Below the pieces are notes generated by a model, which was given only the letters and a program-made list of their open reading frames with translations, did no database searches and was not told the DNA's origin. A stretch of DNA of 64,000 bases, from NCBI RefSeq assembly GCF_001832885.1, contig NZ_MKIQ01000001.1:37017-101016 (forward strand). The letters run 5' to 3'. Origin of the DNA: Floricoccus penangensis. GTDB taxonomy: Bacteria > Bacillota > Bacilli > Lactobacillales > Streptococcaceae. The number at the start of each line of letters is the position of its first letter. Position 1 is the first letter of the stretch. Made by a program: the position numbers and the translations under genes. Positions 15,523 to 50,731 of this stretch are shown piece after piece.

Positions 15523-17277
15523 TTAGTCTTTTTTCTTTTCCTCAACTGAAAGGCTTAATTCAGCAAGCTGTTTGTCAGAAACTAGGCTAGGAGCTTCTGT
15601 CATTGGATCAGTAGCTTTATTATTTTTAGGGAAGGCGATAACTTCACGAATATTATCTTTTTTAGCTAAAAGCATAGCAAATCTATCAAGACCAAGAGCT
15701 AGTCCTCCGTGTGGTGGGAAACCATATTCAAGTGCTTCTAAAAGGAATCCAAATTGGTCTTTTGCGTCCTCAGCAGTAAACCCAAGAGCTGTAAACATTC
15801 TTTCTTGTAATTCACGTTTGTTGATACGTAGGCTACCACCACCAAGTTCATAACCATTTAATACGATATCATAAGCAACTGCACGTACTTTTTCAAGATC
15901 TGATTCAAGATAGTGTGCTGTGTCTTCTGTTGGAAGTGTAAATGGGTGGTGAGCAGACATATAACGACCCTCTTCTTCGCTATATTCGAACAATGGCCAG
16001 TCGATAACCCATAGGAAATTGAATTTGTCGTTGTCAATTAAATCAAGTTCTTTAGCTAGACGACCTCTTAGGGCACCTAAAGTAGTATTAGCAACATCTA
16101 AATCGTCAGCTACAAATAAAATTAAATCTCCATTTTCAGCAGATAATTCTTCTAAGAAATCAGACGTTTTATCTGTTAGGAATTTAGCGATTGGACCAGT
16201 TAATTGATCGTTATCAACTTTTACCCATGCAAGGCCTTTTGCACCGAAATCTTTGGCAAAATCAGTAAGCTTGTCAATATCTTTACGTGAATATTTGTCA
16301 GCAGCACCTTTTGCAACGATTGCCTTTACAACTGGAGCTTCTGCAAATACTTTGAAATCAACTGTTTTTGCAAGTTCTGTCAAGTCTTGTAACTTCATTT
16401 CATAGCGTGTATCAGGTTTATCATTGCCATAGAAGTTCATAGCGTCATTATAGGCCATACGTGGGAAAGGAAGGGTAACATCAATATTAAGAGTTTCTTT
16501 CATTACTTTAGCAAGTAAACCTTCAGTGATATCTTGAATTTCTTGTTCAGATAAGAAAGAAGTTTCAAGGTCGACTTGTGTAAACTCAGGTTGACGGTCT
16601 CCACGTAAATCTTCATCACGGAAACATTTAACGATTTGATAATAACGGTCAAAGCCAGCATTCATTAAAAGTTGTTTTGTTAATTGCGGACTTTGTGGTA
16701 AAGCATAGAAGTGACCTTCCGAGATACGACTTGGTACAAGATAGTCACGTGCGCCTTCGGGTGTTGATTTAGTAAGTACTGGTGTTTCAACATCAATAAA
16801 GTTTAAATCATCAAGATAGTGTCTGATTGATTTAGTAATTTGATGGCGAAGTTTAAAGTTTTTAAGCATTTCAGGACGACGAAGGTCAAGGTAACGATAT
16901 TTAAGACGAGTGTCGTCATTTACAGTAACATCATCTTTAATTTCAAATGGAGTAGTTTTAGCAGTATTTAGAATAGTTAATTCGTTTACAGCAAGTTCTA
17001 TTTGTCCAGTTGGGATGTTGTTATTTGCTGATGCACGTTCAACTACCTCACCTGTAACTTCAATAACATATTCATTTCTTAAAGATTCGGCATCTTTCAT
17101 CAAGTCTTCTGATACATTTTCAGGATTAATAACCAATTGCATGATACCTTCACGGTCACGTAAATCAATAAAGATTAATCCACCAAGGTCACGACGACGT
17201 CCAACCCATCCTTTAAGAGTAACAGTTTGACCAATATTTTCGCTTCTTACATCACCAGCATACATAGTTCTTTTCAT
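15523..17277 (-). CDS. aspS: Aspartate--tRNA ligase, 584 aa
   Basis: Class II aaRS motifs, OB-fold N-terminus, GAD insertion, C-terminal ...GGLALGLDR. Confidence 0.95.
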
Positions 17278-18566
17278 TATAAAATCTCCTCTAATAGTTC
17301 ATCAAAAATTGGGTTAAAATCTTCATATACATTTTCAAGAGTTGTAGCAACTTCTCGACGATTTTCATTGTTTTTAACTATAATATTACCCGTAGTTGCT
17401 TCTTCTTCCCCTAAAGTGATAATAAGTTTAGCATCATATGCTTCAGCAGATTTGAATTGGGCTTTAATTTTACGTCCCAGATAATCACGGTCAGCAACAA
17501 AACCTTGTTCACGTAAACTTTGAACAACCTTTAATGCTGGGTAATTTGCTTCATCACCTAGAACCACAACATAAACATCAAGAGAATTAGCAGTTGGTAT
17601 TTCGATACCTTGTTCTTCCATAATTAGAAGAAGTCTTTCGATACCCATTCCAAAACCAAAACCTGGAGTAAATGGTCCACCAAAATATTCAACGAGACCA
17701 TCATAACGACCACCAGCACAGATTGTTAACTCAGACCCTTTAACATCAATCATAAATTCGAAGATTGTGTCATTGTAATAGTCAAGACCACGAACCATAG
17801 TATGGTCAATTGTATATTCAATATTAAGAGCATCAAGCATTGAACGTACTTGATTAAAATGATCAAGACTCGCTTCAGTTAAATAATCTAGTACTTTTGG
17901 AGCCTCAAGCACGATTTCTTTATCTCTTTTATCTTTGCTGTCAAGTATACGTAAAGGATTTTCGGTCAGTCTGCGTTTGCTATCATCAGACAATTCTTCT
18001 GCATAAGGAGTCAGATAGTCAACCAGTGCTTGACGGTATGCAGCACGACTTTCTTTGTCACCTAGGCTATTAAGGTGAAGTCTTACACCTTCTATACCAA
18101 GTTGTTCAAAGAATGCTTGAGCCATAGCAATTGTTTCAACATCAGTAGCTGGATTTTTTGACCCAAAGCACTCTACTCCGATTTGGTGGAATTGACGCAT
18201 ACGTCCTGCTTGAGGACGTTCATAACGAAACATTGGTTCAGTATAATAAAGTTTAACTGGCTTTTGAACCTCGGGTGCAAACATTTTGTTTTCAACGTAA
18301 GAACGAACAACTGGAGCAGTACCTTCTGGGCGAAGTGTTATATGGCGTTCACCTTTATCGTAGAAGTCATACATTTCTTTTGTTACGATGTCACTTGTAT
18401 CACCAACAGAACGACTAAATACTTCATAGTGTTCGAAGATTGGAGTACGGATTTCCTTATAGTTATAGCTTGAAAAAACAAGATTGGCTGTTTCTTCAAT
18501 GAATTGCCATTTGTTACTTTCAGTAGGGAGTATGTCATTTGTCCCTTTTGGTTTTTGTAGTTTCAT
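17277..18566 (-). CDS. hisS: Histidine--tRNA ligase, 429 aa
   Basis: Class II motifs and HisRS signature (RGLDYY, GGRYDGL). Overlaps the aspS start by 1 nt. Confidence 0.95.
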
Positions 18567-18600
18567 AGATATCCTTTCTGGTAGAGATATTTGTTTGTAT

Positions 18601-18701
18601 AGTCACTTAAAAATAGATTAATACATCGTTGACTCATCTCGATGAACGCTAGTTCTATCATCAATTCGTCGCCTTGTCTTATTTCTATTTTAATCAACTA
18701 T
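18601..18701 (-). repeat. BOX-like dispersed repeat, short form (copy A)
   Basis: Reverse complement is near-identical to 46667..46764 (1 mismatch in about 98 nt). Confidence 0.8.
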
Positions 18702-18744
18702 AATTCGAATACTGAGAGGTTGTTTCATCTTTTCTTGGGTATAG

Positions 18745-18925
18745 AAAAAGCCCTTGAGATTACTCAAGGACGTACAATTGACGTGGTGCCACCTTTATTC
18801 ACAGAAAATATCTGTCTCTAAAAGCTATAAGGTTGCTAGCCATATCTTACGTCACTTTTTTCTAATAAATTAGAAACTTATCTCAATGCATTCTCTCAGC
18901 TTACTGAATGCTCTCTTTTTCTAGG
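18745..18925 (-). promoter_or_regulatory. T-box riboswitch leader of hisS-aspS, with promoter TTGTTT-N17-TATAAT (minus strand, about 18958..18930)
   Basis: Minus strand carries the T-box core AAAGGTGGCACCACG (fwd 18782..18798), a stem-I region with an AGAGA motif, and the terminator CCTTGAGTAATCTCAAGGGCTTTTTC (fwd 18745..18770). Confidence 0.7.
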
Positions 18926-18974
18926 ACTCATTATAACAAAAGCATTATCATAAAACAATGATAAAATAGGGGCT

Positions 18975-19535
18975 TTAGGTATTTTTTACAGATAATATAC
19001 CTCTAAATGAATTAATGTTTACTAATCCGACAATGACTAGGGAAACGATTGGGATGAAAAAGGCAAAAACAAAGGCCAGAGCAAAACAACCATAGAAATT
19101 TTTAACCCATTTATTAGTTCTAGGTAAAGTATTTTCCATATCAGGATTATCTCTACATACTTGTTTGTTTAAAACAAAGAAACTTTCCACCCAAAGAATT
19201 TGGAGAAGAAGATAAGTTATCATAGGTAGTGTGGCATTGGTTTTTTCACTAATCTAAGAGGTCGTGAAAGGAACTAAGGTAAGTAGGAAGAGCCAAATCC
19301 CATTTAATAGGAAAACTTTATTTGATATGATTTCGGCATTCTTAAAGGTATTATGGTGAGAAAACCAAAAAAGATAAATTAAGAAAAAACTAACGATGTA
19401 GGCAAAAAGTACATGCCACTCAGAAAGTAGGTTACTTAATTTTACTCCATCAGGTGAATGAAGTTCTAAGACCATAATTGTTGCAGCTATTGCAATCATT
19501 GCATCTGTAAATGCTTCTAAACGTGATTTATTCAT
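18975..19535 (-). pseudogene. DUF1211 (TMEM175-like) membrane protein interrupted by a single in-frame TAG
   Basis: ORFs 19254..19535 and 18975..19223 are in the same frame, separated only by a TAG (fwd CTA 19254..19256) and 10 sense codons. The N-terminal FTDAMIAIAATIMVLEL is the DUF1211 signature. Combined length about 186 aa, which is family-typical. Confidence 0.6.
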
Positions 19536-25704: not shown

Positions 25705-27654
25705 ATGAAAAAATGGTTTATAGCCATTTTATTGTTGTTTTCTATTACTCTCCCACTTAATGTTAATGCAGGTGCGGATCAACTCAAGGATCAGGAGCTA
25801 ATTAACTCAGCTCCATACATTAAACCTTTAAAAGAAAATGGTAAGAAAATATTATTTGATAATACACATGCTCAGACAGCTGGAGCTGCTGATTGGGTCA
25901 TTGATGGAGGATTTTCTGATTTTGCTGATGGTCTTGTGAAAGAAGGTTATTACGTAAAGGAACTTCGAAAGTTTACTCCTATAACCCTTCAAGACTTAGA
26001 AGACTATGATGTATTTGTAATACCTGAAGCTAATATCCCATATAAAGCAGAAGAGCAAAATGCAATAGCTGCCTATGTTTCAGGTGGAGGTTCTGTATTT
26101 TATATAGGTGATCACTATAATGCCGATCGAAATAAGAATAGGATTGATGCACCAGAAGCATTTAATGGTTTTCGCAGAGGTGCATACACAGATATGACAC
26201 TTGGTATGGATGATGGAGAGCGTAATTCCCAGGCCATGCAAGGAGTAGTTAGTAGAGATTGGTTAAATGATACATTTGGTGTTCGTTTTAGATATAATGC
26301 GCTTGATAATATTGATGCCCCAATGATTATGGAAAATACATTTGGCATTTTAGACAATGTAAGTGATGTTGCTTTGCATGCTGGTGGAACAATTGCAATA
26401 ATGGATAATAAACGTGCCAAAGGAATTGTTTACCCTCCAGAAGGACTCACAAAAGAAACTAACCGTTGGCCTAACGCTACTGATGATGGAGTGTATAATG
26501 GTGGTGGAGTTGCGGAAGGTGCTTATATTGCCATCAGTAAAAAAGATAAAGGAAAGGCAGCCTTCCTTGGAGATTCTTCACTAGTTGAAGATGCTAGTCC
26601 TAAATATAGAAATGAAGAAACTGGAAACTTGAAGAGGACATACGATGGTTACAGCGAAAAAGATGATTCTCGTCTCTTGATGCAACTTATTAATTGGCTA
26701 GCTATTCAAGAAGATTATTCAGATTTTAGTAATAAAGGAATAAATTTATCAGAAAAAACTAGTTTACATGATTTTGAGATTCCAGAAAATAGTACAGAGC
26801 CACAAGCAGAGCCTTGGGGGAAACCACAAAAGGGTTATAAATGGTATGACCGTTCTACTTTTGCAGCAGGAAGTTATGGATCAAATATTGATCCAGATAA
26901 GTTACCTAAAGTAGAGATTATTTATGATAACTTGCCTGTTGTGGGTGAAGAGGTAAAACTAAAAGTTATTTTTACTAACTACAAAGCAAATACAGTTTTG
27001 AAGGACTATACTTTAGGTATTTACAATCCAACCGAAGGACAGAATGGTCTTAAACAAGGTGAGCAAGTTGCTGATACAAAAGTAGGAGAAGGTGAGTGGA
27101 AAAATAATAAATCTTATTCAAATACTTTTGATATCCAGACGGATAAGTACGGAAATGCTGAACAAGAAATCACCGTCAAAGTAGATATTGAAGGAAATTA
27201 CAATATTAGATTGAAACAAGGCAAAAATAATGTTATAACTGATACTATAGTGTTCGCTACTCAGAATGATGTCGAAAAACCACAACCTAATATTGATGTT
27301 GAATATTCAAATAGGATTGCAGTAGGTAAGGAAAGTAAGGTTTCAATAAAGTTTACCGATTTTAGTCCTAATACTGATCTAAGAGACTATGTTTTAGATG
27401 TATATAGTCCAGTCTCTTATTTGGGAAATGAAGCAGGAAGTGGTTATGCTTTTGTTAAATCAAGTGATGGTAAATGGAGCAACAAACGTGATTCATCTGA
27501 ATCATTTGATGTTTTGACAGATAAAGATGGTAATGCCTCTATAGAGTTAACTATTCGTACAACTGACGCAGGTGACTTTATTCTTCGTTTGCGAAAGAAC
27601 AATGAAGAGCAATTTAGTAGTAAGATTCAATCTTTATGGTATTTACCAAGTTAA
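25705..27654 (+). CDS. Secreted protein, 649 aa, with an N-terminal ~340-aa domain and two C-terminal ~125-aa tandem repeat (beta-sandwich-like) domains
   Basis: Signal peptide MKKWFIAILLLFSITLPLNVNA. Internal repeats (KVIFTNYKANTVLKDYTLGIYNP...ITVKVDIEGNYNIRLKQ versus KVSIKFTDFSPNTDLRDYVLDVYSP...ELTIRTTDAGDFILRLRK). Confidence 0.55.
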   Translation: MKKWFIAILLLFSITLPLNVNAGADQLKDQELINSAPYIKPLKENGKKILFDNTHAQTAGAADWVIDGGFSDFADGLVKEGYYVKELRKFTPITLQDLEDYDVFVIPEANIPYKAEEQNAIAAYVSGGGSVFYIGDHYNADRNKNRIDAPEAFNGFRRGAYTDMTLGMDDGERNSQAMQGVVSRDWLNDTFGVRFRYNALDNIDAPMIMENTFGILDNVSDVALHAGGTIAIMDNKRAKGIVYPPEGLTKETNRWPNATDDGVYNGGGVAEGAYIAISKKDKGKAAFLGDSSLVEDASPKYRNEETGNLKRTYDGYSEKDDSRLLMQLINWLAIQEDYSDFSNKGINLSEKTSLHDFEIPENSTEPQAEPWGKPQKGYKWYDRSTFAAGSYGSNIDPDKLPKVEIIYDNLPVVGEEVKLKVIFTNYKANTVLKDYTLGIYNPTEGQNGLKQGEQVADTKVGEGEWKNNKSYSNTFDIQTDKYGNAEQEITVKVDIEGNYNIRLKQGKNNVITDTIVFATQNDVEKPQPNIDVEYSNRIAVGKESKVSIKFTDFSPNTDLRDYVLDVYSPVSYLGNEAGSGYAFVKSSDGKWSNKRDSSESFDVLTDKDGNASIELTIRTTDAGDFILRLRKNNEEQFSSKIQSLWYLPS

Positions 27655-31297: not shown

Positions 31298-32704
31298 TTA
31301 TAAGTTGCTATTGTTCTTCGAATTTTTATCATTATTTCGTTTTGTGGCATCATCTTTATTTTTAATAAGTTCTTCAAAATCAATACCAGTTGCATCTTTA
31401 ATTGCTTGGAAAGTTCGATCCATACCTATTTTTCCTAATTTTTCGATTCGATTTGCTTCAGCTTGCGCTGCTAATTCAATTTGTCTTGCTTCAATTTCTG
31501 CTTTAGCAATTTGACGAGCTTTATTTGCCTCAGCTTCCTGAACAGCAACGTAATGTCTTGTTTCAGCTTCTTTACGAAGAAAATCAGAATTGAACTCTTT
31601 TTCTCGTGCTTCTGCTTTCTTTTCTAGAAGCTCAATTTTCTTTTCTTGTTCTTCATATTCTAATTTCAACTGCTCCATTTTAGATTTTAGCTCAATTTGT
31701 GCTTTCAAAATTTCACGATCTTTTATAATATTAGCTTTTTCAATTTCTTGCATTTTTATCAAATTAGCTTGTTCAATTTGACCATCTTTCTCTATATTAG
31801 CACGTTCGATTTCACGATCTTTTTCTATATTAGCACGTTCAATTTCTTGATTTTTTATTATATTTGCTTGCTCAATTTCTTTGTCCTTCATCATATTAGC
31901 TTTTTTAATTTCACTTTTTACACGTTCTTGGACTTTTGCAATTTCTTCATCTAAATTTATTTTTATTTCTTGAAGTGCTTGTTCTTTTCGTTCTTCAGCA
32001 ATTTCTATGCTTCTCTTAATTTCTTCAAGCTGTGCCGCTTTATCATCTTCGGCTTGTTTAATACGGGTTTCAAGATCGGCAGAAGAGTATTCAAGCTGTG
32101 CCTTTCTTTTGTTTTCAACTATCTGAAGTTTAGTGATTGCATCTATGTAACCATTGCCATCATTAATTTCTTTTATTGAAAGTGATAGTAATTCGATTCC
32201 CATTTTTTTAAGTTCAATTGAAGCCATAGCTTGTATCTGTTCAATTATATATGATTTATCTGTATATATATCTTCCTCTGTCATTGTACTTAAGACAGCT
32301 TGTATCTGTTTTTCAATGATTTCCTTAGCATCTTCTTCAATTTTTTTTGAAGGCTCTCCTAGATAATGCTCTACAGCATTTTTAATATACTTGTCTGTTG
32401 TTCCGATTCTTACCAACGCTGAAGCAGTAGCTTGAAAAGGTATCCCTCCATCCATATATATTTCATTGACTTCAAGATCAATTTTTTTAGTTAGAAGGCT
32501 GAGCGTATGTGCTTTCTGTAAAAATGGAACTATATATGTTCCTCCATCTGTAACTACCCTGACTCCCTCTTTATTTTTAAGATTTTTCCCCGAAACTACA
32601 AGTGCTTGATTTGGTTCTCTCTTTACATAAGTTGCTACAAGTAATACTGCAATTAAAATAAAAATGATTAAGATTACCATTAATACAATTAAAATTTTTG
32701 ACAT
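31298..32704 (-). CDS. Flotillin-like SPFH/band-7 protein (FloT/YuaG-type), 468 aa
   Basis: Start moved to ATG 32704 (RBS GGGGGAAAAT). N-terminal TM, SPFH domain, and long E/A/K/Q coiled-coil C-terminus typical of flotillins. Confidence 0.8.
   Translation of the reverse strand: MSKILIVLMVILIIFILIAVLLVATYVKREPNQALVVSGKNLKNKEGVRVVTDGGTYIVPFLQKAHTLSLLTKKIDLEVNEIYMDGGIPFQATASALVRIGTTDKYIKNAVEHYLGEPSKKIEEDAKEIIEKQIQAVLSTMTEEDIYTDKSYIIEQIQAMASIELKKMGIELLSLSIKEINDGNGYIDAITKLQIVENKRKAQLEYSSADLETRIKQAEDDKAAQLEEIKRSIEIAEERKEQALQEIKINLDEEIAKVQERVKSEIKKANMMKDKEIEQANIIKNQEIERANIEKDREIERANIEKDGQIEQANLIKMQEIEKANIIKDREILKAQIELKSKMEQLKLEYEEQEKKIELLEKKAEAREKEFNSDFLRKEAETRHYVAVQEAEANKARQIAKAEIEARQIELAAQAEANRIEKLGKIGMDRTFQAIKDATGIDFEELIKNKDDATKRNNDKNSKNNSNL
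31725..31925 (-). repeat. In-frame 33-bp tandem repeat (about 6 units) inside the flotillin gene, encoding EIE(R/Q)ANI(I/E)K(D/N)x 11-mers
   Basis: DNA units ...tattagcacgttcgatttcacgatcttt... reiterated; protein KDKEIEQANIIKNQEIERANIEKDREIERANIEKDGQIEQANLIKMQEIEKANIIKDREI. Confidence 0.7.
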
Positions 32705-33217
32705 ATTTTCCCCCAATTTATAAGTTTTAATAATGATTTTACTTTTTTTTCTAAACTGCAACATGAAAAAAATTTTGAAATTAATCAATCTACAATTATT
32801 TCATTAAAATAATAAAATAATTAAATTTTAAACTCCCCACAAATTTAAAATTATAATTTTAAAAACTCAAATGTATGTATTTTGTTAACAATTAAGAAAA
32901 ATGCAGTAACATCCTATTGATTAGTATTATAATGCAAAAGTTTTTTTAAACAAAATAAAAACTCATTTTAGAGTATCAATGAGTTAAATTTATAGTAAAA
33001 ATTTGTATAAATTTGATGATTTTTAATTTCTAATCTTTTTTTACTTTTATAAAATATTTGAAGTATTGTACTCTCTGGAAATTTGTTGGAATGCTTCATG
33101 AATTGGAAGTAAATAGGAGAAAAATATCGCAGATAGGGTACAAAAAAACAGCTATCAATTGATAACTGTTTTTAAGTTTGTACCTTATATCATATAAAAT
33201 TAAGATATCATATAAAA

Positions 33218-35349: not shown

Positions 35350-35378
35350 TTATTCACTCCTATCCATGTTTGTTATGG

Positions 35379-35596
35379 TTGATTAAAATAGAAATAAGAC
35401 AAGGCGCTTCGCTGTGCTACGATGTCCATAGAACTTAAATTGCTAAAGCAATTAGTTCTAATGGCGACGAATTGATGATAGAACTAGCGTTCATCGAGAT
35501 GAGTCACTACGCCTTGCTCCGATGTCGATTATACTATAATAAGCAAGCTTATTAGTATAAATCGCAACGATGTATTAATCTATTTTTAAGTGACTG
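35379..35596 (+). repeat. BOX-like dispersed repeat, long form (copy B) with two extra internal modules
   Basis: Same termini as the other copies (TTGATTAAAATAGAAATAAGACAAGGCG ... CGATGTATTAATCTATTTTTAAGTGACT), with 60-nt and 59-nt insertions relative to the short form. Confidence 0.8.
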
Positions 35597-43805: not shown

Positions 43806-44060
43806 TAATAAGAGCGAAGAAAAGTAGCATTTGGAATGATTTCAGAGAATTGGCGGGTAGTGCGAGTCAATATCATAAAAAGTGTGAATGGGCTTTGCTT
43901 AAAATCATGATTTGAAAAAATAAAAATCACGGTAGTCACCGATATCAGACAATTGTTTTGTAAGACAATTAGAGGGAATAGATATGTTCCGAATTGTGGT
44001 GGTACCGTGTCGTGAGACGCCCGCATATAGATTATTAATCTATATGCGGTTTTTTGTTTT
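43806..44060 (+). promoter_or_regulatory. T-box riboswitch leader of trpS
   Basis: T-box core GAATTGTGGTGGTACCGTGTCG (43991..44012) overlaps the 5' arm of the terminator CGCATATAGATTattaATCTATATGCGGTTTTTTG (44019..44056). Upstream AGAGA-containing stem-I region. Confidence 0.75.
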
Positions 44061-44105: not shown

Positions 44106-45134
44106 ATGACATCAAAAAAAATTATTTTAACAGGTGATAGACCAACAGGTAAACTTCATATTGGTCATTATGTTGGTTCATTACGTAACCGAGTACTTTT
44201 ACAAAATCAAGGTAAATATGATTTATTTGTCTTTCTAGCTGACCAACAAGCATTGACAGACCATGCAAAAGAGCCTCAAAAGATTATTGAAAGTGTTGGG
44301 GAAGTGGCACTTGATTACTTGGCAGCAGGTCTTGATCCTTCTAAATCAACTATCTTTATTCAAAGCCAAATTCCAGAACTTGCTGAGCTTTCTATGTATT
44401 TTATGAACTTAGTTAGTCTTGCTCGTTTGGAACGTAATCCAACAGTAAAAACGGAAATTTCTCAAAAGGGATTTGGAGAAAGTATTCCAGCAGGTTTCTT
44501 GGTTTATCCAGTATCTCAAGCAGCTGACATTACTGCATTTAAGGCTAATCTTGTTCCAGTTGGTAATGACCAAAAGCCAATGATTGAACAGACTCGTGAG
44601 ATTGTTCGTTCATTCAATAACGCTTATGATACTGATGTATTAGTTGAACCAGAAGGAATTTATCCGGATAATGAAGCAGCAGGACGTCTACCTGGACTTG
44701 ATGGTAACGCTAAGATGTCTAAATCATTAAATAATGGTATTTACCTATCAGATGATATTGATACGCTTCAGAAGAAAGTTATGAGCATGTATACTGATCC
44801 TAATCATATTCGTGTTGAAGATCCAGGACAAGTTGAAGGTAATATGGTATTCCATTATCTAGATGTCTTCGGAAATGCTGATGATGCTCAAAAAATTGCT
44901 GAGATGAAAGAACAATATGCAGCTGGTGGTCTTGGGGATGTTAAAACTAAGCGTTATTTACTAGAAGTTCTAGATCGTGAGTTAGGACCAATACGTGAAC
45001 GTCGCTTAGAATATGCTAAAGATATGGGACAAGTTTACCAAATGCTTAAAGATGGTAGTGAAAAAGCCCAAGCAGTTGCTGCTAATACGCTTGATGAAGT
45101 AAAAGATGCAATGGGATTAAATTATTTTAAGTAA
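44106..45134 (+). CDS. trpS: Tryptophan--tRNA ligase, 342 aa
   Basis: Class I HIGH (TGKLHIGHY) and KMSKS (KMSKS) motifs. Confidence 0.9.
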
Positions 45135-45304: not shown

Positions 45305-46621
45305 ATGAAGAATTCTCAGGAGCTAAATCTTAGAGAAATTTCAAATTTTGCAGCAAATATTCATTCGAATTTTAATGAAGGTCATGATTTTGAACATATC
45401 CAAAGGGTAGTGGAGTTAGCTAAGGAACTTTTACAAGATTATCCACAGGCAGATGAATTTTTAGTTTTAGCAGCATGCTATCTCCATGATACTTATGATG
45501 AAAAGTTATTTGATGATAGTATCAAACAAAAAGAAGCTGTAAAAGAATTTCTAGAGTCTTTAGGACTTGGTGATGATATTATTAGGCAATTATTTTCTAT
45601 TATTGATAATATGAGTTTTGCAGCCAGTCTGGATGGTAAGGCACCTCTTGATCTTAATGGACAAATAGTACAGGATGCTGATAGGATTGATAGCCTTGGG
45701 CCGATAGCTGTTACACGTGCTCTACAATTCGGCTGGTATCATAATATTCCTCTTTATAATCCAGAGGAAGTAGCTCAGACTTTTACGTCCAAGGAGGATT
45801 ATCGTAAGGCAGATAGTAGCACCATAACTCACTTTAAGGAAAGATTATTTCTTTTAAAGGATATGCTTAATACAAAAAAGGCTCAGGATATGTGTTTTGA
45901 GCGTGATAAATTTATTCGTGATTTTGTAGCAGCTATTGAAGCAGAGTGGGTTATGGATAATCCTGACTTAATAAATGATGAGAAATTAGTAAAAATAAGA
46001 GATTTTGCCTATAACATTCATTCCGAAATTAATGATGGTCATGATTTTAATCATATTAGACGAGTAGCTGGTTTAGCTCAAAAAATTCTAGAGACTTATT
46101 CACATGTGGATAAGTTTACAGTCCTAGCTACGGTTTATCTACATGATTGTTATGATCAAAAGCTTTTTGTGGATAGTTTGGAACAAAAAGCTAAGGTAAT
46201 CGACTTTCTTTCCAAGCTAGAAATTGAACAAGATATAATTGATAAGATAATCTATATTATCGACAATATGAGTTTCTTTGCTAATATCGATGGTCAAAAG
46301 AAATTGAATTTAGTTGGACAAATCGTTCAGGATGCGGACCGTCTTGATAGTATGGGAGCTATCGCTATAAATAGAGCTCTTGAATATGGATGGTCACATA
46401 GTCGTAAATTATATGATCCAAGTGTTAAGCCTCGCCAAGATTTATCAAAGGATGAATATCGTAATTCAGAAGGAACTACAATAAATCATTTTTATGAAAA
46501 ACTATTTTTATTAAGTGACAAGTTGAATACTGAAGAAGCGCGTGAACTTGCAAAAGGTCGTAATCAGATAATGCATGATTTTGTCACAGGTATTGAAAGA
46601 GATTGGATTGAAGTTAGCTAA
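45305..46621 (+). CDS. Tandem HD-domain phosphohydrolase, 438 aa
   Basis: Two homologous ~215-aa halves, each with the H...HD...D pattern (GHDFEHIQRV...YLHDTYD and GHDFNHIRRV...YLHDCYD). Confidence 0.65.
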   Translation: MKNSQELNLREISNFAANIHSNFNEGHDFEHIQRVVELAKELLQDYPQADEFLVLAACYLHDTYDEKLFDDSIKQKEAVKEFLESLGLGDDIIRQLFSIIDNMSFAASLDGKAPLDLNGQIVQDADRIDSLGPIAVTRALQFGWYHNIPLYNPEEVAQTFTSKEDYRKADSSTITHFKERLFLLKDMLNTKKAQDMCFERDKFIRDFVAAIEAEWVMDNPDLINDEKLVKIRDFAYNIHSEINDGHDFNHIRRVAGLAQKILETYSHVDKFTVLATVYLHDCYDQKLFVDSLEQKAKVIDFLSKLEIEQDIIDKIIYIIDNMSFFANIDGQKKLNLVGQIVQDADRLDSMGAIAINRALEYGWSHSRKLYDPSVKPRQDLSKDEYRNSEGTTINHFYEKLFLLSDKLNTEEARELAKGRNQIMHDFVTGIERDWIEVS

Positions 46622-46653: not shown

Positions 46654-46666
46654 GTTTATTATATAG

Positions 46667-46764
46667 TTGATTAAAATAGAAATAAGACAAGTCGACGAAT
46701 TGATGATAGAACTAGCGTTCATCGAGATGAGTCAACGATGTATTAATCTATTTTTAAGTGACTA
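46667..46764 (+). repeat. BOX-like dispersed repeat, short form (copy C)
   Basis: TTGATTAAAATAGAAATAAGACAAGTCGACGAATTGATGATAGAACTAGCGTTCATCGAGATGAGTCAACGATGTATTAATCTATTTTTAAGTGACT. Confidence 0.8.
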
Positions 46765-50481: not shown

Positions 50482-50553
50482 TAGTCCGTACGGGATTCGA
50501 ACCCGTGTTACCGCCGTGAAAAGGCGGTGTCTTAACCCCTTGACCAACGGACC
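50482..50553 (-). tRNA. tRNA-Glu (UUC)
   Basis: Minus strand reads GGTCCGTTGGTCAAGGGGTTAAGACACCGCCTTTTCACGGCGGTAACACGGGTTCGAATCCCGTACGGACTA. Cloverleaf with anticodon UUC. Confidence 0.9.
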
Positions 50554-50570
50554 AGGGTAAATATATAGTG

Positions 50571-50632
50571 GTTTAAAATAGATTAATACTTTGTTTACTT
50601 GTCTTATTTCTATTTAAATCAACTACGACTGT
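50571..50632 (-). repeat. BOX-like repeat, minimal form (copy D: two termini only) between the two tRNA-Glu genes
   Basis: AAAATAGATTAATAC...GTCTTATTTCTATTTAAATCAACTA, same orientation as copy A. Confidence 0.6.
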
Positions 50633-50659: not shown

Positions 50660-50731
50660 TAGTCCGTACGGGATTCGAACCCGTGTTACCGCCGTGAAAA
50701 GGCGGTGTCTTAACCCCTTGACCAACGGACC
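50660..50731 (-). tRNA. tRNA-Glu (UUC), second identical copy
   Basis: Identical 72-nt sequence. Confidence 0.9.

What the first reader, a model, noticed from the sequence alone, without database searches (positions are those of the whole stretch)
18567..18745. Repeat element inserted inside the hisS T-box leader, between the terminator/antiterminator and the start codon
Going 5' to 3' on the minus strand the order is: promoter, stem I, T-box core, terminator (18770..18745), the 101-nt repeat copy (18701..18601), then a 34-nt spacer before the hisS ATG (18566). The repeat is therefore transcribed as part of the hisS-aspS mRNA leader after the regulatory decision point, where a stable hairpin could affect mRNA stability or ribosome access.
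Basis: seen in the sequence. Interest (0 to 1): 0.5.

Follow-up and report, generated by a model that had tools for sequence, protein, structure and literature searches.

The report
Correia-like mobile repeat in hisS leader
The repeat in the hisS-aspS leader is a recent, strain-specific insertion of a small non-coding transposon (MITE) related end to end to the Correia elements, which the papers I read describe only in Neisseria, here in a Gram-positive Floricoccus; it probably has little effect on hisS.

Summary
On the minus strand the order is: extended -10 promoter, T-box leader, terminator (18771-18742), a 101-nt repeat (18700-18600, flanked by TA/TA), 33 nt holding the ribosome-binding site, then hisS-aspS.

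The repeat is a MITE. The window holds three more copies (60, 101 and 221 nt). Floricoccus tropicus DF1 has at least seven.

Six other Floricoccus hisS leaders lack the insertion. Two other window copies have clean single-TA empty sites in DF1, so the element was recently mobile and duplicates TA.

New here: a profile built only from about 105-nt Correia elements from Neisseria-type contigs matches the hisS copy end to end (model 1-106 of 107, E 7.5e-8). The two ends match end for end. A Moraxellaceae MAG carries a MITE with the same 23-nt left-end core.

Papers I read call Correia elements unique to Neisseria and their mobilising enzyme undetermined.

Effect on hisS is inferred only. The element is co-transcribed after the T-box decision point and folds into its own hairpin (-25 kcal/mol). 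It has no terminator tail and no convincing promoter, and it leaves the ribosome-binding site free. The likeliest role is a tolerated passenger, possibly an RNase III substrate as in Neisseria.

The parts
18930..18938 (-). Likely leader promoter: extended -10, TGtTATAAT
   Evidence: This is the only 6/6 -10 hexamer with a TGn extension in the leader region. It is inferred from sequence, not mapped.
18763..18945 (-). T-box leader of the hisS-aspS operon
   Evidence: Rfam RF00230 scores 50.3 bits, E 5e-10, below the gathering score of 93. The distal Stem I helix has 2 compensatory pairs across Floricoccus and the ESL strains. The core and terminator are invariant in 4 genomes.
18781..18796 (-). 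T-box core AAAGGUGGCACCACGU with a UGGC bulge (antiterminator 5' strand)
   Evidence: Read from the sequence. It aligns to the T-box consensus in the cmscan alignment.
18742..18771 (-). Intrinsic terminator of the T-box (the regulatory decision point)
   Evidence: The terminator scan finds a 9-bp stem with 5 G-C pairs, a 4-nt loop and a TTTTTCTATA tail.
18598..18702 (-). Correia-like MITE, 101-nt A-B-C form (18700..18600), plus flanking TA/TA
   Evidence: It is absent from six other Floricoccus leaders. A Correia-only nhmmer profile aligns to 18702-18599 over model positions 1-106 of 107, at 30.1 bits, E 7.5e-8. The RNA hairpin is -25.3 kcal/mol, z -3.7.
18572..18578 (-). Shine-Dalgarno GAAAGGA of hisS, untouched by the insertion
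   Evidence: Read from the sequence. The local pairing is the same with and without the element.
17277..18566 (-). hisS (histidine--tRNA ligase)
   Evidence: TIGR00442 at 518 bits. It is 99% identical to F. tropicus HisS.
15523..17277 (-). aspS (aspartate--tRNA ligase), overlapping the hisS stop codon
   Evidence: NF001750 at 866 bits.
35376..35596 (+). Second copy: 221-nt composite form A-X-B-Y-C
   Evidence: The site is empty in DF1 (GTTAAAATAAG, a single TA) and in ESL0687. X and Y are related hairpin modules of about 58 nt.
46664..46764 (+). Third copy: 101-nt form, 99% identical to the hisS copy
   Evidence: DF1 has an empty site with a single TA here (TTATTATAAATT).
50566..50625 (-). Fourth copy: minimal 60-nt A-C form between two identical tRNA-Glu genes
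   Evidence: The tRNA genes are listed.

Best explanation
The repeat is a non-autonomous transposon (MITE) of the Correia (CREE/nemis) kind.

It has imperfect terminal inverted repeats that begin TAGTTGATTAAAAT. It inserts at TA and duplicates it. It carries no gene, so a transposase acting in trans must move it. That transposase was not found here.

In this one Floricoccus strain a 101-nt copy landed 43 nt downstream of the T-box terminator of the hisS-aspS operon and 33 nt upstream of the start codon, in the sense orientation.

Shown here:
- It is an insertion, and it is private to this strain.
- The family is recently mobile and is flanked by TA.
- It is homologous end to end to the approximately 105-bp Correia class.

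Inferred:
- The T-box decision is taken upstream of the element, and the element supplies no terminator and no convincing promoter. hisS-aspS therefore probably stays under T-box control.
- Read-through mRNA gains a roughly 100-nt imperfect hairpin in its 5' UTR.
- The hairpin leaves the ribosome-binding site free, so the insertion is most likely a tolerated, near-neutral passenger.
- If it has an effect, the most likely one is cleavage of the hairpin by RNase III, as reported for Correia elements in Neisseria mRNA leaders. That would change the half-life of the downstream message.
For: **Insertion, private to this strain**
- Alignments A1 and A3 and megablast show about 97.7% identity to F. 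penangensis ML061-4 and about 95% to DF1 on both sides of the element.
- The window has 104 nt where the six other leaders have one G.

**Mobility and TA duplication**
- The two other window copies that could be compared with DF1 have empty sites there, each with a single TA.
- DF1 instead carries an independent 282-nt copy about 40 nt away, in the opposite orientation.
- 8 of 10 copies have TA on both flanks.
- Copies are 98-100% identical to each other.

**Correia homology**
- A profile built from 22 Correia elements, with no Floricoccus sequence in it, hits six 101-nt Floricoccus copies end to end at E 2.6e-8 to 4.6e-6 (the longer composite copies match only in part). Nothing else in 218 kb is hit.
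- The left end against the Correia 'TCAGGACAA' end scores 25, against shuffles of 5.6 +/- 1.9 (0 of 5000 reach it).
- The right end against the 'CCGGTACGG' end scores 15, against 4.0 +/- 1.7 (0 of 5000).
- Cross-end comparisons are weak.
- Intermediates exist. A 107-nt subfamily in Neisseria-type contigs differs from Floricoccus at 2 of the first 35 nt. A Moraxellaceae MAG has a MITE with the same 23-nt left-end core.

**Properties of Correia elements, from the literature**
- TA duplication, polar ends, size classes of about 70, 105 and 155 bp, RNase III cleavage when transcribed in the mtrCDE leader, and an unknown mobilising mechanism (PMC2649163, PMC2229807, PMC10969869).

**Little effect on hisS expected**
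- No promoter-like or terminator-like site lies in or after the element on the hisS strand.
- Only a weak junction candidate for a promoter exists.
- The hairpin is self-contained and the Shine-Dalgarno pairing is unchanged.
- The spacer that received the insertion is missing altogether in ESL0687 and ESL0729.
- There is no orientation bias among the 10 copies.
Against: - No transcript data exist. Co-transcription, RNase III cleavage and neutrality are all inferences.
- The empty allele at the hisS site reads TG, not TA, in all six other sequences. A clean TA duplication at this site needs an extra private SNP.
- A Neisseria-only profile made mostly of 155-nt elements gave only weak E-values for Floricoccus (0.5-2), although every hit sat on an element end.
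- No parent insertion sequence or transposase was found.
- Copy number seems low: at least 7 in DF1 by an exact-core scan plus one extra, against 90-250 in Neisseria.
- The forward-strand hairpin is more stable than the reverse one (-25.3 against -19.0 kcal/mol) because of G-U pairs. This could hint at RNA-level selection that the 'passenger' reading ignores.
Confidence: 0.75

Rival explanations
1. The insertion creates a new promoter at its left junction. The terminal TATAGT would act as the -10 box and flanking native sequence as the -35 box, like the 'Snyder' promoter of Correia elements. This would give hisS-aspS a basal expression that bypasses the T-box.
For: - TATAGT matches the -10 consensus at 5 of 6 positions. 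It lies at 18702-18697, with GAAACA (3 of 6) 18 nt upstream.
- TAAAAT (5 of 6) lies at 18692-18687.
- Correia ends are reported to generate promoters at either end (PMC2649163, PMC10969869).
Against: - It fails the consensus scan, which needs 9 of 12 matches.
- It has no TG extension, whereas the genuine leader promoter has TGtTATAAT.
- Its -35 box is poor.
- From general knowledge, promoters in low-GC Gram-positives usually need a near-perfect -10 with a TG extension or a good -35.
Confidence: 0.1
2. The hairpin is a selected post-transcriptional regulator of hisS-aspS. It would act as an RNase III or RNase Y/J processing site, or as a 5' stabiliser after processing, and would be kept because it adjusts synthetase levels.
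For: - The hairpin is stable and stronger on the transcribed strand.
- There is a precedent: RNase III cleaves a Correia element in the mtrCDE leader (PMC2649163).
- Another window copy (35376-35596) also sits between a terminator and a start codon.
Against: - The insertion occurs in only one of seven Floricoccus leaders, so it is young and not conserved.
- The family shows no orientation bias.
- The copy is identical to copies elsewhere in the genome, so it shows no local adaptation.
Confidence: 0.12
3. The element belongs to the streptococcal BOX-type modular repeats (boxA-boxB(n)-boxC, as in S. pneumoniae and S. suis) rather than to the Correia family, and the Correia similarity is superficial.
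For: - The host is a member of the Streptococcaceae.
- The architecture is modular: conserved ends with optional internal hairpin modules X and Y.
- It shares the 10-mer CAAGGCGACG with the boxA primer BOXA1R (PMC7291552).
Against: - The 41 nt of boxA recoverable from published primers align only weakly to the element: score 11, reached by 55 of 2000 shuffles.
- The Correia profile, by contrast, aligns end to end at E about 1e-7.
- Published BOX profile models found nothing in N. meningitidis (PMC3049150).
Confidence: 0.05
4. The repeat is a chance similarity or an assembly artefact.
For: None found.
Against: - There are four copies in the window, against 0 matches in shuffles.
- The same element occurs in independent DF1 contigs.
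- The insertion junctions are precise.
Confidence: 0.01

Closest known systems
Correia repeat-enclosed elements (CREE / nemis) of Neisseria, 104-108-bp class
   Same: - The outer ends are nearly identical: TATAGTtGATTAAA against TATAGTgGATTAAA.
- The subterminal GACAAGGCGACGAA is identical.
- The two ends are polar and match end for end.
- The length is about 105 nt including the TA flanks.
- It is flanked by TA and duplicates TA.
- It is non-coding.
- Size classes arise by gain or loss of internal segments.
- The transcript is predicted to form a long hairpin.
- It is often found 5' of genes.
(PMC2649163, PMC5039591)
   Different: - The host is a Gram-positive member of the Streptococcaceae with 33% G+C.
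- The internal core is AT-rich and only loosely alignable.
- The right inverted repeat has drifted (TAGTCACTT).
- Extra X and Y hairpin modules give forms of 161-282 nt.
- Copy number looks low.
- No promoter of Black or Snyder quality exists at the hisS copy.
- An IHF site was not examined. From general knowledge, Firmicutes lack IHF.
Correia element in the Neisseria meningitidis mtrCDE leader
   Same: A Correia-type element sits between a regulated promoter or leader and the structural genes. It is therefore part of the mRNA, where RNase III cleavage has been demonstrated (PMC2649163, PMC10969869).
   Different: In Neisseria the insertion uncouples the operon from its protein regulators and carries an IHF site. 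Here the regulator is a T-box riboswitch lying wholly upstream of the element, so control should be retained. Nothing has been measured.
BOX elements of S. pneumoniae and S. suis
   Same: The architecture is modular, with conserved terminal modules and a variable number of internal hairpin modules. The host family is the same. The elements are intergenic, and the folds of the internal modules are independent of the terminal stem (PMC3049150).
   Different: Sequence similarity to boxA is weak. The ends and the TA flanks follow Correia instead.
RUP (repeat unit of pneumococcus) mobilised by IS630-Spn1
   Same: It is a MITE of about 107 bp that targets TA and lives in the Streptococcaceae (PMC2229807).
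   Different: RUP's inverted repeats match IS630-Spn1. No RUP or IS630-Spn1 sequence was available to compare, so any relationship is untested.

Membership tests
Correia / CREE / nemis MITE | Terminal inverted 'Correia repeats' beginning TATAGTGGATTAA | tested here: met
   The left end is TATAGTTGATTAAAATAGAAATAAGACAA. It matches 13 of the outer 14 nt. Together with the subterminal GGCGACGAA it matches 31 of 38 (my count from the alignment). It scores 25 against shuffles of 5.6 +/- 1.9, with 0 of 5000 reaching it. Reference repeats come from PMC5039591 and PMC9778887 and from real copies. The right repeat is more diverged (TAGTCACTTAAAAAT).
Correia / CREE / nemis MITE | Polar element with one TCAGGACAA-type end and one CCGGTACGG-type end | tested here: met
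   Like-end comparisons score 25 and 15, with 0 of 5000 shuffles each. Cross-end comparisons score 10 and 8, reached by 31 and 242 of 5000 shuffles.
Correia / CREE / nemis MITE | Colinear sequence homology over the whole element | tested here: met
   An nhmmer profile of 22 Correia elements of about 105 nt aligns to window 18702-18599 over model positions 1-106 of 107, at 30.1 bits, E 7.5e-8. Five further 101-nt Floricoccus copies give E 2.6e-8 to 4.6e-6.
Correia / CREE / nemis MITE | Duplication of a TA target | tested here: met
   Empty sites in DF1 hold a single TA at two window insertion sites. TA lies on both flanks in 8 of 10 copies. At the hisS site the flanks are TA/TA, but the empty alleles read TG.
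Correia / CREE / nemis MITE | Discrete size classes from internal deletions or insertions | tested here: met
   Floricoccus copies are 60, 101, 161, 221 and 282 nt. Neisseria copies are 69, 106 and 155 nt.
Correia / CREE / nemis MITE | High copy number (about 90-250 per genome) | tested here: inconclusive
   An exact 23-nt core found 6 copies in DF1, and one more was found by BLAST. The window has 4 in 64 kb. No whole-genome profile census was possible.
Correia / CREE / nemis MITE | Restricted to the genus Neisseria (as stated in PMC5039591) | tested here: not met
   The host is Floricoccus: HisS is 99% identical to F. tropicus, and the DNA is 97.7% identical to F. penangensis ML061-4. This is a statement about distribution rather than a structural criterion.
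Correia / CREE / nemis MITE | The transcribed hairpin is bound or cleaved by RNase III | not testable with these tools
   Only a predicted hairpin is available: -25.3 kcal/mol, z -3.7.
Correia / CREE / nemis MITE | Outward or inward sigma-70 promoters at the ends (Black, Snyder) | tested here: not met
   No site passes the consensus scan. There is only a weak TATAGT with GAAACA candidate.
T-box leader (RF00230) | Covariance-model score at or above Rfam's gathering score | tested here: not met
   The score is 50.3 bits against a gathering score of 93, with E 5e-10 in a 651-nt search. The ESL0687 ortholog scores 49.8 bits.
T-box leader (RF00230) | T-box core with a UGGN bulge that can form an antiterminator competing with an intrinsic terminator | tested here: met
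   The sequence AAAGGUGGCACCACGU...ACGUCCUUGAG-UAAU-CUCAAGGGCUUUUU is read directly. The terminator is found by the scan. This block is invariant in four genomes.
T-box leader (RF00230) | Stem I with an AG bulge and a distal loop | tested here: met
   The sequence is AGAGA-GCAUUC-AGUAAGCUGAGA-GAAUGC. The helix has 6 pairs, 2 of them with compensatory changes between Floricoccus and the ESL strains.
T-box leader (RF00230) | Specifier codon that matches the regulated synthetase | tested here: inconclusive
   No CAC or CAU was placed in a specifier position. A conserved GUGAC (Asp codon GAC) and a UGGC bulge suggest tRNA-Asp. hisS-aspS T-boxes elsewhere carry GACAC and are thought to read tRNA-Asp (PMC5313534).
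BOX element | Sequence similarity to boxA | tested here: inconclusive
   Only 41 nt of boxA, recovered from primers, could be used. They score 11, reached by 55 of 2000 shuffles.
RUP / IS630-Spn1-derived MITE | Inverted repeats that match IS630-Spn1 | not tested

The most novel reading that the evidence does not exclude
Correia-type MITEs are not confined to Neisseria. They would form a family that crosses phyla: Neisseriaceae, a Moraxellaceae MAG and the Gram-positive Floricoccus. Their transposase-binding ends are nearly identical across these hosts, which implies one horizontally travelling transposase that has not yet been identified.

Floricoccus has a genome of about 2.1 Mb. Its copies are 98-100% identical, and insertions differ between strains that are 95-98% identical. 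It should therefore still encode, or have very recently encoded, that enzyme. Comparing the transposase repertoires of the three hosts could name the enzyme that moves Correia elements. The papers I read treat that enzyme as undetermined (PMC2649163).
Probability: 0.55. Interest if true: 0.75.

Novelty: new variant of a known kind. Interest (0 to 1): 0.58.

Why it matters
**For the finding as stated.** This is a natural insertion into the stretch between a T-box terminator and the start codon. It shows that this stretch tolerates 100 nt of structured RNA. It also offers near-isogenic comparison material: six leaders without the element.

**More broadly.**
- Correia elements are the first bacterial MITEs to have been described. 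In Neisseria they rewire promoters and mRNA stability.
- The papers I could read describe them as unique to Neisseria (PMC5039591) and their mobilising mechanism as undetermined (PMC2649163).
- A clear homolog that has recently moved in a small Gram-positive genome, together with a near-identical left end in a Moraxellaceae MAG, widens the host range across phyla.
- It also gives a comparative route to the missing transposase.

Tried and rejected
- Rfam at a permissive threshold over 18450-19100 found only the T-box and nothing for the repeat.
- The exact left-end core and a degenerate left-end pattern found nothing in the viral contigs.
- The 230-nt composite copy found nothing in plasmids or phages at E 0.01.
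- The exact window HisS is not on record, and neither is P0130. The window's own genome is therefore not in the collections. The closest is F. penangensis ML061-4.
- A profile made only from the first 12 Neisseria elements, mostly 155 nt, gave weak E-values for Floricoccus (0.5-2). It was replaced by a profile matched in length.
- A search for a parent insertion sequence looked for left and right ends 0.5-4 kb apart with nothing between them. None was found in any fetched locus.
- Scanning the viral contigs with the BOXA1R primer to obtain real BOX elements hit only an unrelated GC-rich contig. BOX could therefore be tested only with 41 nt recovered from primers.
- The DltD cluster representative P0121 gave only a 3.8-kb contig. 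The DF1 member P0126 had to be taken from the cluster list.
- My Stem I alignment cut the ESL sequences short of the GUGAC motif. The specifier codon is therefore not settled.
- The idea that the element is a transcription terminator was rejected. No T-run follows the hairpin on the hisS strand.

Full report
**Observation**

On the minus strand the region reads as follows.
- A likely extended -10 promoter, TGtTATAAT, at 18938-18930.
- A T-box leader. RF00230 matches 18945-18763 at 50.3 bits, E 5e-10 in a local search. This is below Rfam's gathering score of 93, so it was absent from the whole-window gathering scan.
- The T-box core AAAGGTGGCACCACGT at 18796-18781.
- A 9-bp terminator with a T-run at 18771-18742.
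- A 101-nt repeat at 18700-18600, flanked by TA on each side.
- 33 nt that hold the Shine-Dalgarno GAAAGGA.
- The hisS ATG at 18566, and then aspS overlapping the hisS stop codon.

The repeat is not a chance match.
- Pieces of it of 31-35 nt recur 2-3 times in the window, against none in 100 shuffles.
- BLAST finds four copies in the window:
  - 18600-18700 (-), 101 nt;
  - 46664-46764 (+), 101 nt, 99% identical to the first;
  - 35376-35596 (+), a 221-nt composite;
  - 50566-50625 (-), a 60-nt minimal form between two identical tRNA-Glu genes.

**Organism and comparison material**

- HisS is 99% identical to that of Floricoccus tropicus.
- The DNA is 97.7% identical to F. penangensis ML061-4 (CP075561.1) and about 95% identical to F. 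tropicus DF1.
- The exact protein is not on record, so the window comes from a third strain.

**The repeat is a strain-specific insertion**

- The orthologous leaders of DF1, of ML061-4 and of four metagenome or SRA contigs are otherwise nearly identical. All read ...GTATTTGAATTGCAAACAAATAT... with no element.
- The window reads GAAT-TA-[element]-TA-CAAAC. It holds 104 nt where the other six have a single G.
- The related strains ESL0687 and ESL0729 have the T-box but lack the whole spacer after the terminator. The stretch that received the insertion is therefore dispensable.

**The family is mobile and duplicates TA**

- The site of the 221-nt copy is empty in DF1. DF1 reads GTTAAAATAAG, with one TA. 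The window reads GTTA[TGGTTG...GACTG]TAAAAT.
- The site of the 46664 copy is also empty in DF1 (TTATTATAAATT).
- DF1 instead carries an independent 282-nt copy about 40 nt away, in the opposite orientation, between the stop codon of the upstream gene and its terminator.
- Among ten Floricoccus copies, eight have TA on both flanks and all are intergenic. There is no orientation bias relative to neighbouring genes.
- Seven of the ten lie within about 50 nt of a predicted intrinsic terminator, and five within 6 nt. I did not test this against a null model.
- Copies are 98-100% identical.
- At the hisS site the empty alleles read TG rather than TA. A private SNP in this lineage is the simplest reconciliation. 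Another private SNP lies 10 nt away.

**Architecture**

- The ends are conserved: A is the left repeat plus GACAAGGCG, and C is the right repeat.
- The 101-nt form has a core, B.
- Longer forms carry one to three extra hairpin modules of about 58 nt, X and Y, which are related to each other.
- This modularity recalls BOX elements.

**Identity: a Correia-type element**

- The left end plus the subterminal sequence is TATAGTTGATTAAAATAGAAATAAGACAAGGCGACGAA. It resembles the Correia repeat TATAGTGGATTAAATTTAAATCAGGACAAGGCGACGAA.
- I checked the reference against the published repeat variants (PMC5039591, PMC9778887) and against real copies of 69, 106 and 155 nt fetched from viral contigs.
- Permutation tests:
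  - left end against the Correia 'TCAGGACAA' end: score 25, shuffles 5.6 +/- 1.9, 0 of 5000 reach it;
  - right end against the 'CCGGTACGG' end: score 15, shuffles 4.0 +/- 1.7, 0 of 5000;
  - cross-end comparisons are weak, so the polarity of the element is conserved.
- A first profile made only from Neisseria elements, mostly 155 nt long, was weak (E 0.5-2), although every hit lay on an element end.
- A metagenome scan for left ends of non-canonical type returned canonical Correia variants and a 107-nt subfamily: TATAGTTGATTAAAATAAAAATGAGACAAGGCGAC...GCAACGCCGTATCATTGCAATTTTAATCAACTATA. Its first 35 nt differ from Floricoccus at 2 positions (my count). A close variant with TAGTGGATTAA ends lies on the same contig as a canonical Correia element.
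- A profile of 22 such elements of about 105 nt, 20 canonical and 2 of the subfamily, with no Floricoccus sequence, matches the hisS copy over model positions 1-106 of 107 at 30.1 bits, E 7.5e-8 in 218 kb.
- Five further 101-nt Floricoccus copies score E 2.6e-8 to 4.6e-6, the longer composite copies match in part, and nothing else is hit.
- I take this as homology over the whole element.

**Wider distribution**

- The exact 23-nt left core occurs in only two species-level genomes out of 185,579: F. tropicus DF1 (6 hits) and a MAG labelled Moraxella sp. (4 contigs).
- In the MAG the core heads a GC-rich MITE of about 150 nt that ends ...TTTTAATCGACTATA.
- The DnaG gene next to one MAG copy has its best named relatives in Moraxella at about 50% identity, followed by Psychrobacter. 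The contig is therefore from the Moraxellaceae.
- The papers I could read call CREE 'unique to the Neisseria spp.' (PMC5039591). They say the mobilising mechanism has not been determined (PMC2649163).
- No Floricoccus paper that I read mentions transposases or MITEs.
- No parent insertion sequence was seen in any fetched locus.

**What it does in the hisS leader (inference)**

- The T-box decision between terminator and antiterminator is complete 43 nt before the element.
- On the hisS strand the element brings no T-run terminator and no consensus-quality promoter.
- The only promoter candidate is the terminal TATAGT (5 of 6) with a 3-of-6 -35 box 18 nt upstream and no TG extension.
- Read-through transcripts should therefore contain the element, and hisS-aspS should remain under T-box control.
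- The RNA folds into a self-contained imperfect hairpin. The energy is -25.3 kcal/mol with z -3.7 on this strand, against -19.0 on the other strand.
- In context, the hairpin pairs neither with the terminator nor with the Shine-Dalgarno region. The small local pairing there is the same in ML061-4, which lacks the element.
- The insertion is private to one strain, is identical to copies elsewhere, and lies in a dispensable spacer. A tolerated passenger is the best reading.
- By analogy with the Correia element in the meningococcal mtrCDE leader, which RNase III cleaves (PMC2649163, PMC10969869), RNase III processing is the most plausible effect if there is one. That is untested here.

**Rivals**

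- A junction promoter that bypasses the T-box: about 0.1.
- A selected RNA-level regulator: about 0.12.
- A BOX-type element rather than a Correia-type one: about 0.05. The 41 nt of boxA recoverable from primers align only weakly (score 11, 55 of 2000 shuffles).
- An artefact: refuted.

**Side result on the T-box**

- The Floricoccus and ESL leaders share an invariant GUGAC and a UGGC bulge.
- I found no CAC or CAU in a specifier position, although I did not settle the specifier loop.
- hisS-aspS T-boxes elsewhere carry GACAC and are thought to read mainly tRNA-Asp (PMC5313534).
- From general knowledge, tRNA-Asp has discriminator base G73, which would pair with the C of UGGC.
- The 'hisS T-box' here probably senses tRNA-Asp.

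**Verdict**

- The element is a new, Gram-positive, modular variant of the Correia MITE family.
- Its interest lies less in hisS regulation than in the unexpected host range. It also offers a way to find the missing Correia transposase.

Noticed in passing
window 18796-18781 and about 18870-18860 (GUGACG); L002 and L003 leaders: The hisS-aspS T-box has a conserved GUGAC (Asp codon GAC) and a UGGC bulge. I found no His codon in a specifier position. It probably senses tRNA-Asp, as proposed for the GACAC-type hisS-aspS T-boxes (PMC5313534).
   Followed up: partly
window 50566-50625 (-), between the tRNA-Glu genes at 50482-50553 and 50660-50731: A minimal 60-nt A-C form of the MITE sits between two 100% identical tRNA-Glu genes, in the sense orientation. 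It would be part of the tRNA precursor.
   Followed up: partly
L035 17493-17774 (F. tropicus DF1), compared with window 46664-46764: The same intergenic region was hit independently in two strains. The insertions are at TA sites about 40 nt apart, in opposite orientations and of different sizes (282 and 101 nt), on either side of one bidirectional terminator.
   Followed up: yes
10 Floricoccus copies (window, L008, L010-L013, L035): Seven of ten copies lie within about 50 nt of a predicted intrinsic terminator, and five within 6 nt. This may reflect a target preference for terminator-proximal TA sites. I did not test it against a null model.
   Followed up: partly
L004, L006, L007 and L009 (MAG labelled Moraxella sp. 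S5R_Sa_41): A GC-rich MITE of about 150 nt has a left end that matches the Floricoccus element at about 33 of 35 nt, including an exact 23-mer. Its right end resembles Correia (GTATCGGTTTTATTTTAATCGACTATA). There are several copies per contig. The neighbouring DnaG is Moraxella-like.
   Followed up: partly
L039, L042, L046, L061, L066, L079-L085, L090, L092, L093 and L096; related variant at L043: A distinct 107-nt Correia subfamily occurs in contigs of 52-58% G+C. It has TAGTTGATTAAAAT ends and a core reading GTACAAATAGTAC. A close variant with TAGTGGATTAA ends lies on the same contig (L043) as a canonical Correia element.
   Followed up: partly
Correia 155-nt element, right arm, compared with boxA (primers BOXA1R and BOXA2R): The 41 nt of pneumococcal boxA align to the Correia right arm: CTACGGCAAGGCGACGCTGACGTGGTTT against CTAAGGCGAGGCAACGCCGTACTGGTTT. 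The score is 15, reached by 1 of 2000 shuffles. This hints that BOX and Correia may be distant relatives.
   Followed up: partly
window 18563-18697 (-): A 44-codon ORF (32 codons from its first ATG) starts inside the MITE. It ends with a TGA that overlaps the hisS ATG (ATGA). There is no convincing Shine-Dalgarno sequence, so it is probably coincidental.
   Followed up: partly
window 18975-19223 and 19254-19535 (-): The gene upstream of the leader appears as two ORFs of 82 and 93 aa. DF1 has one intact 186-aa TMEM175-family gene here, and ML061-4 has a truncated 52-aa call. It is probably a pseudogene in this lineage.
   Followed up: partly
window 43808-44027 (+): A second T-box, scoring well (101.8 bits), lies upstream of the 342-aa ORF at 44106-45134. 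The DF1 ortholog of that ORF carries the Pfam domain tRNA-synt_1b.
   Followed up: no
window 31677-31940, inside the ORF at 31298-32788 (-): Six copies of a degenerate 33-nt period (11-aa repeats) lie within a 496-aa ORF. The gene at the corresponding position in DF1 is called as a Band_7 protein.
   Followed up: no
window 25705-27654 (+) and 45305-46621 (+): Gene content differs from DF1. A 649-aa ORF is present here and in ML061-4 but absent from DF1. DF1 has an extra MatE gene between the trpS-like gene and the HD-domain gene.
   Followed up: no
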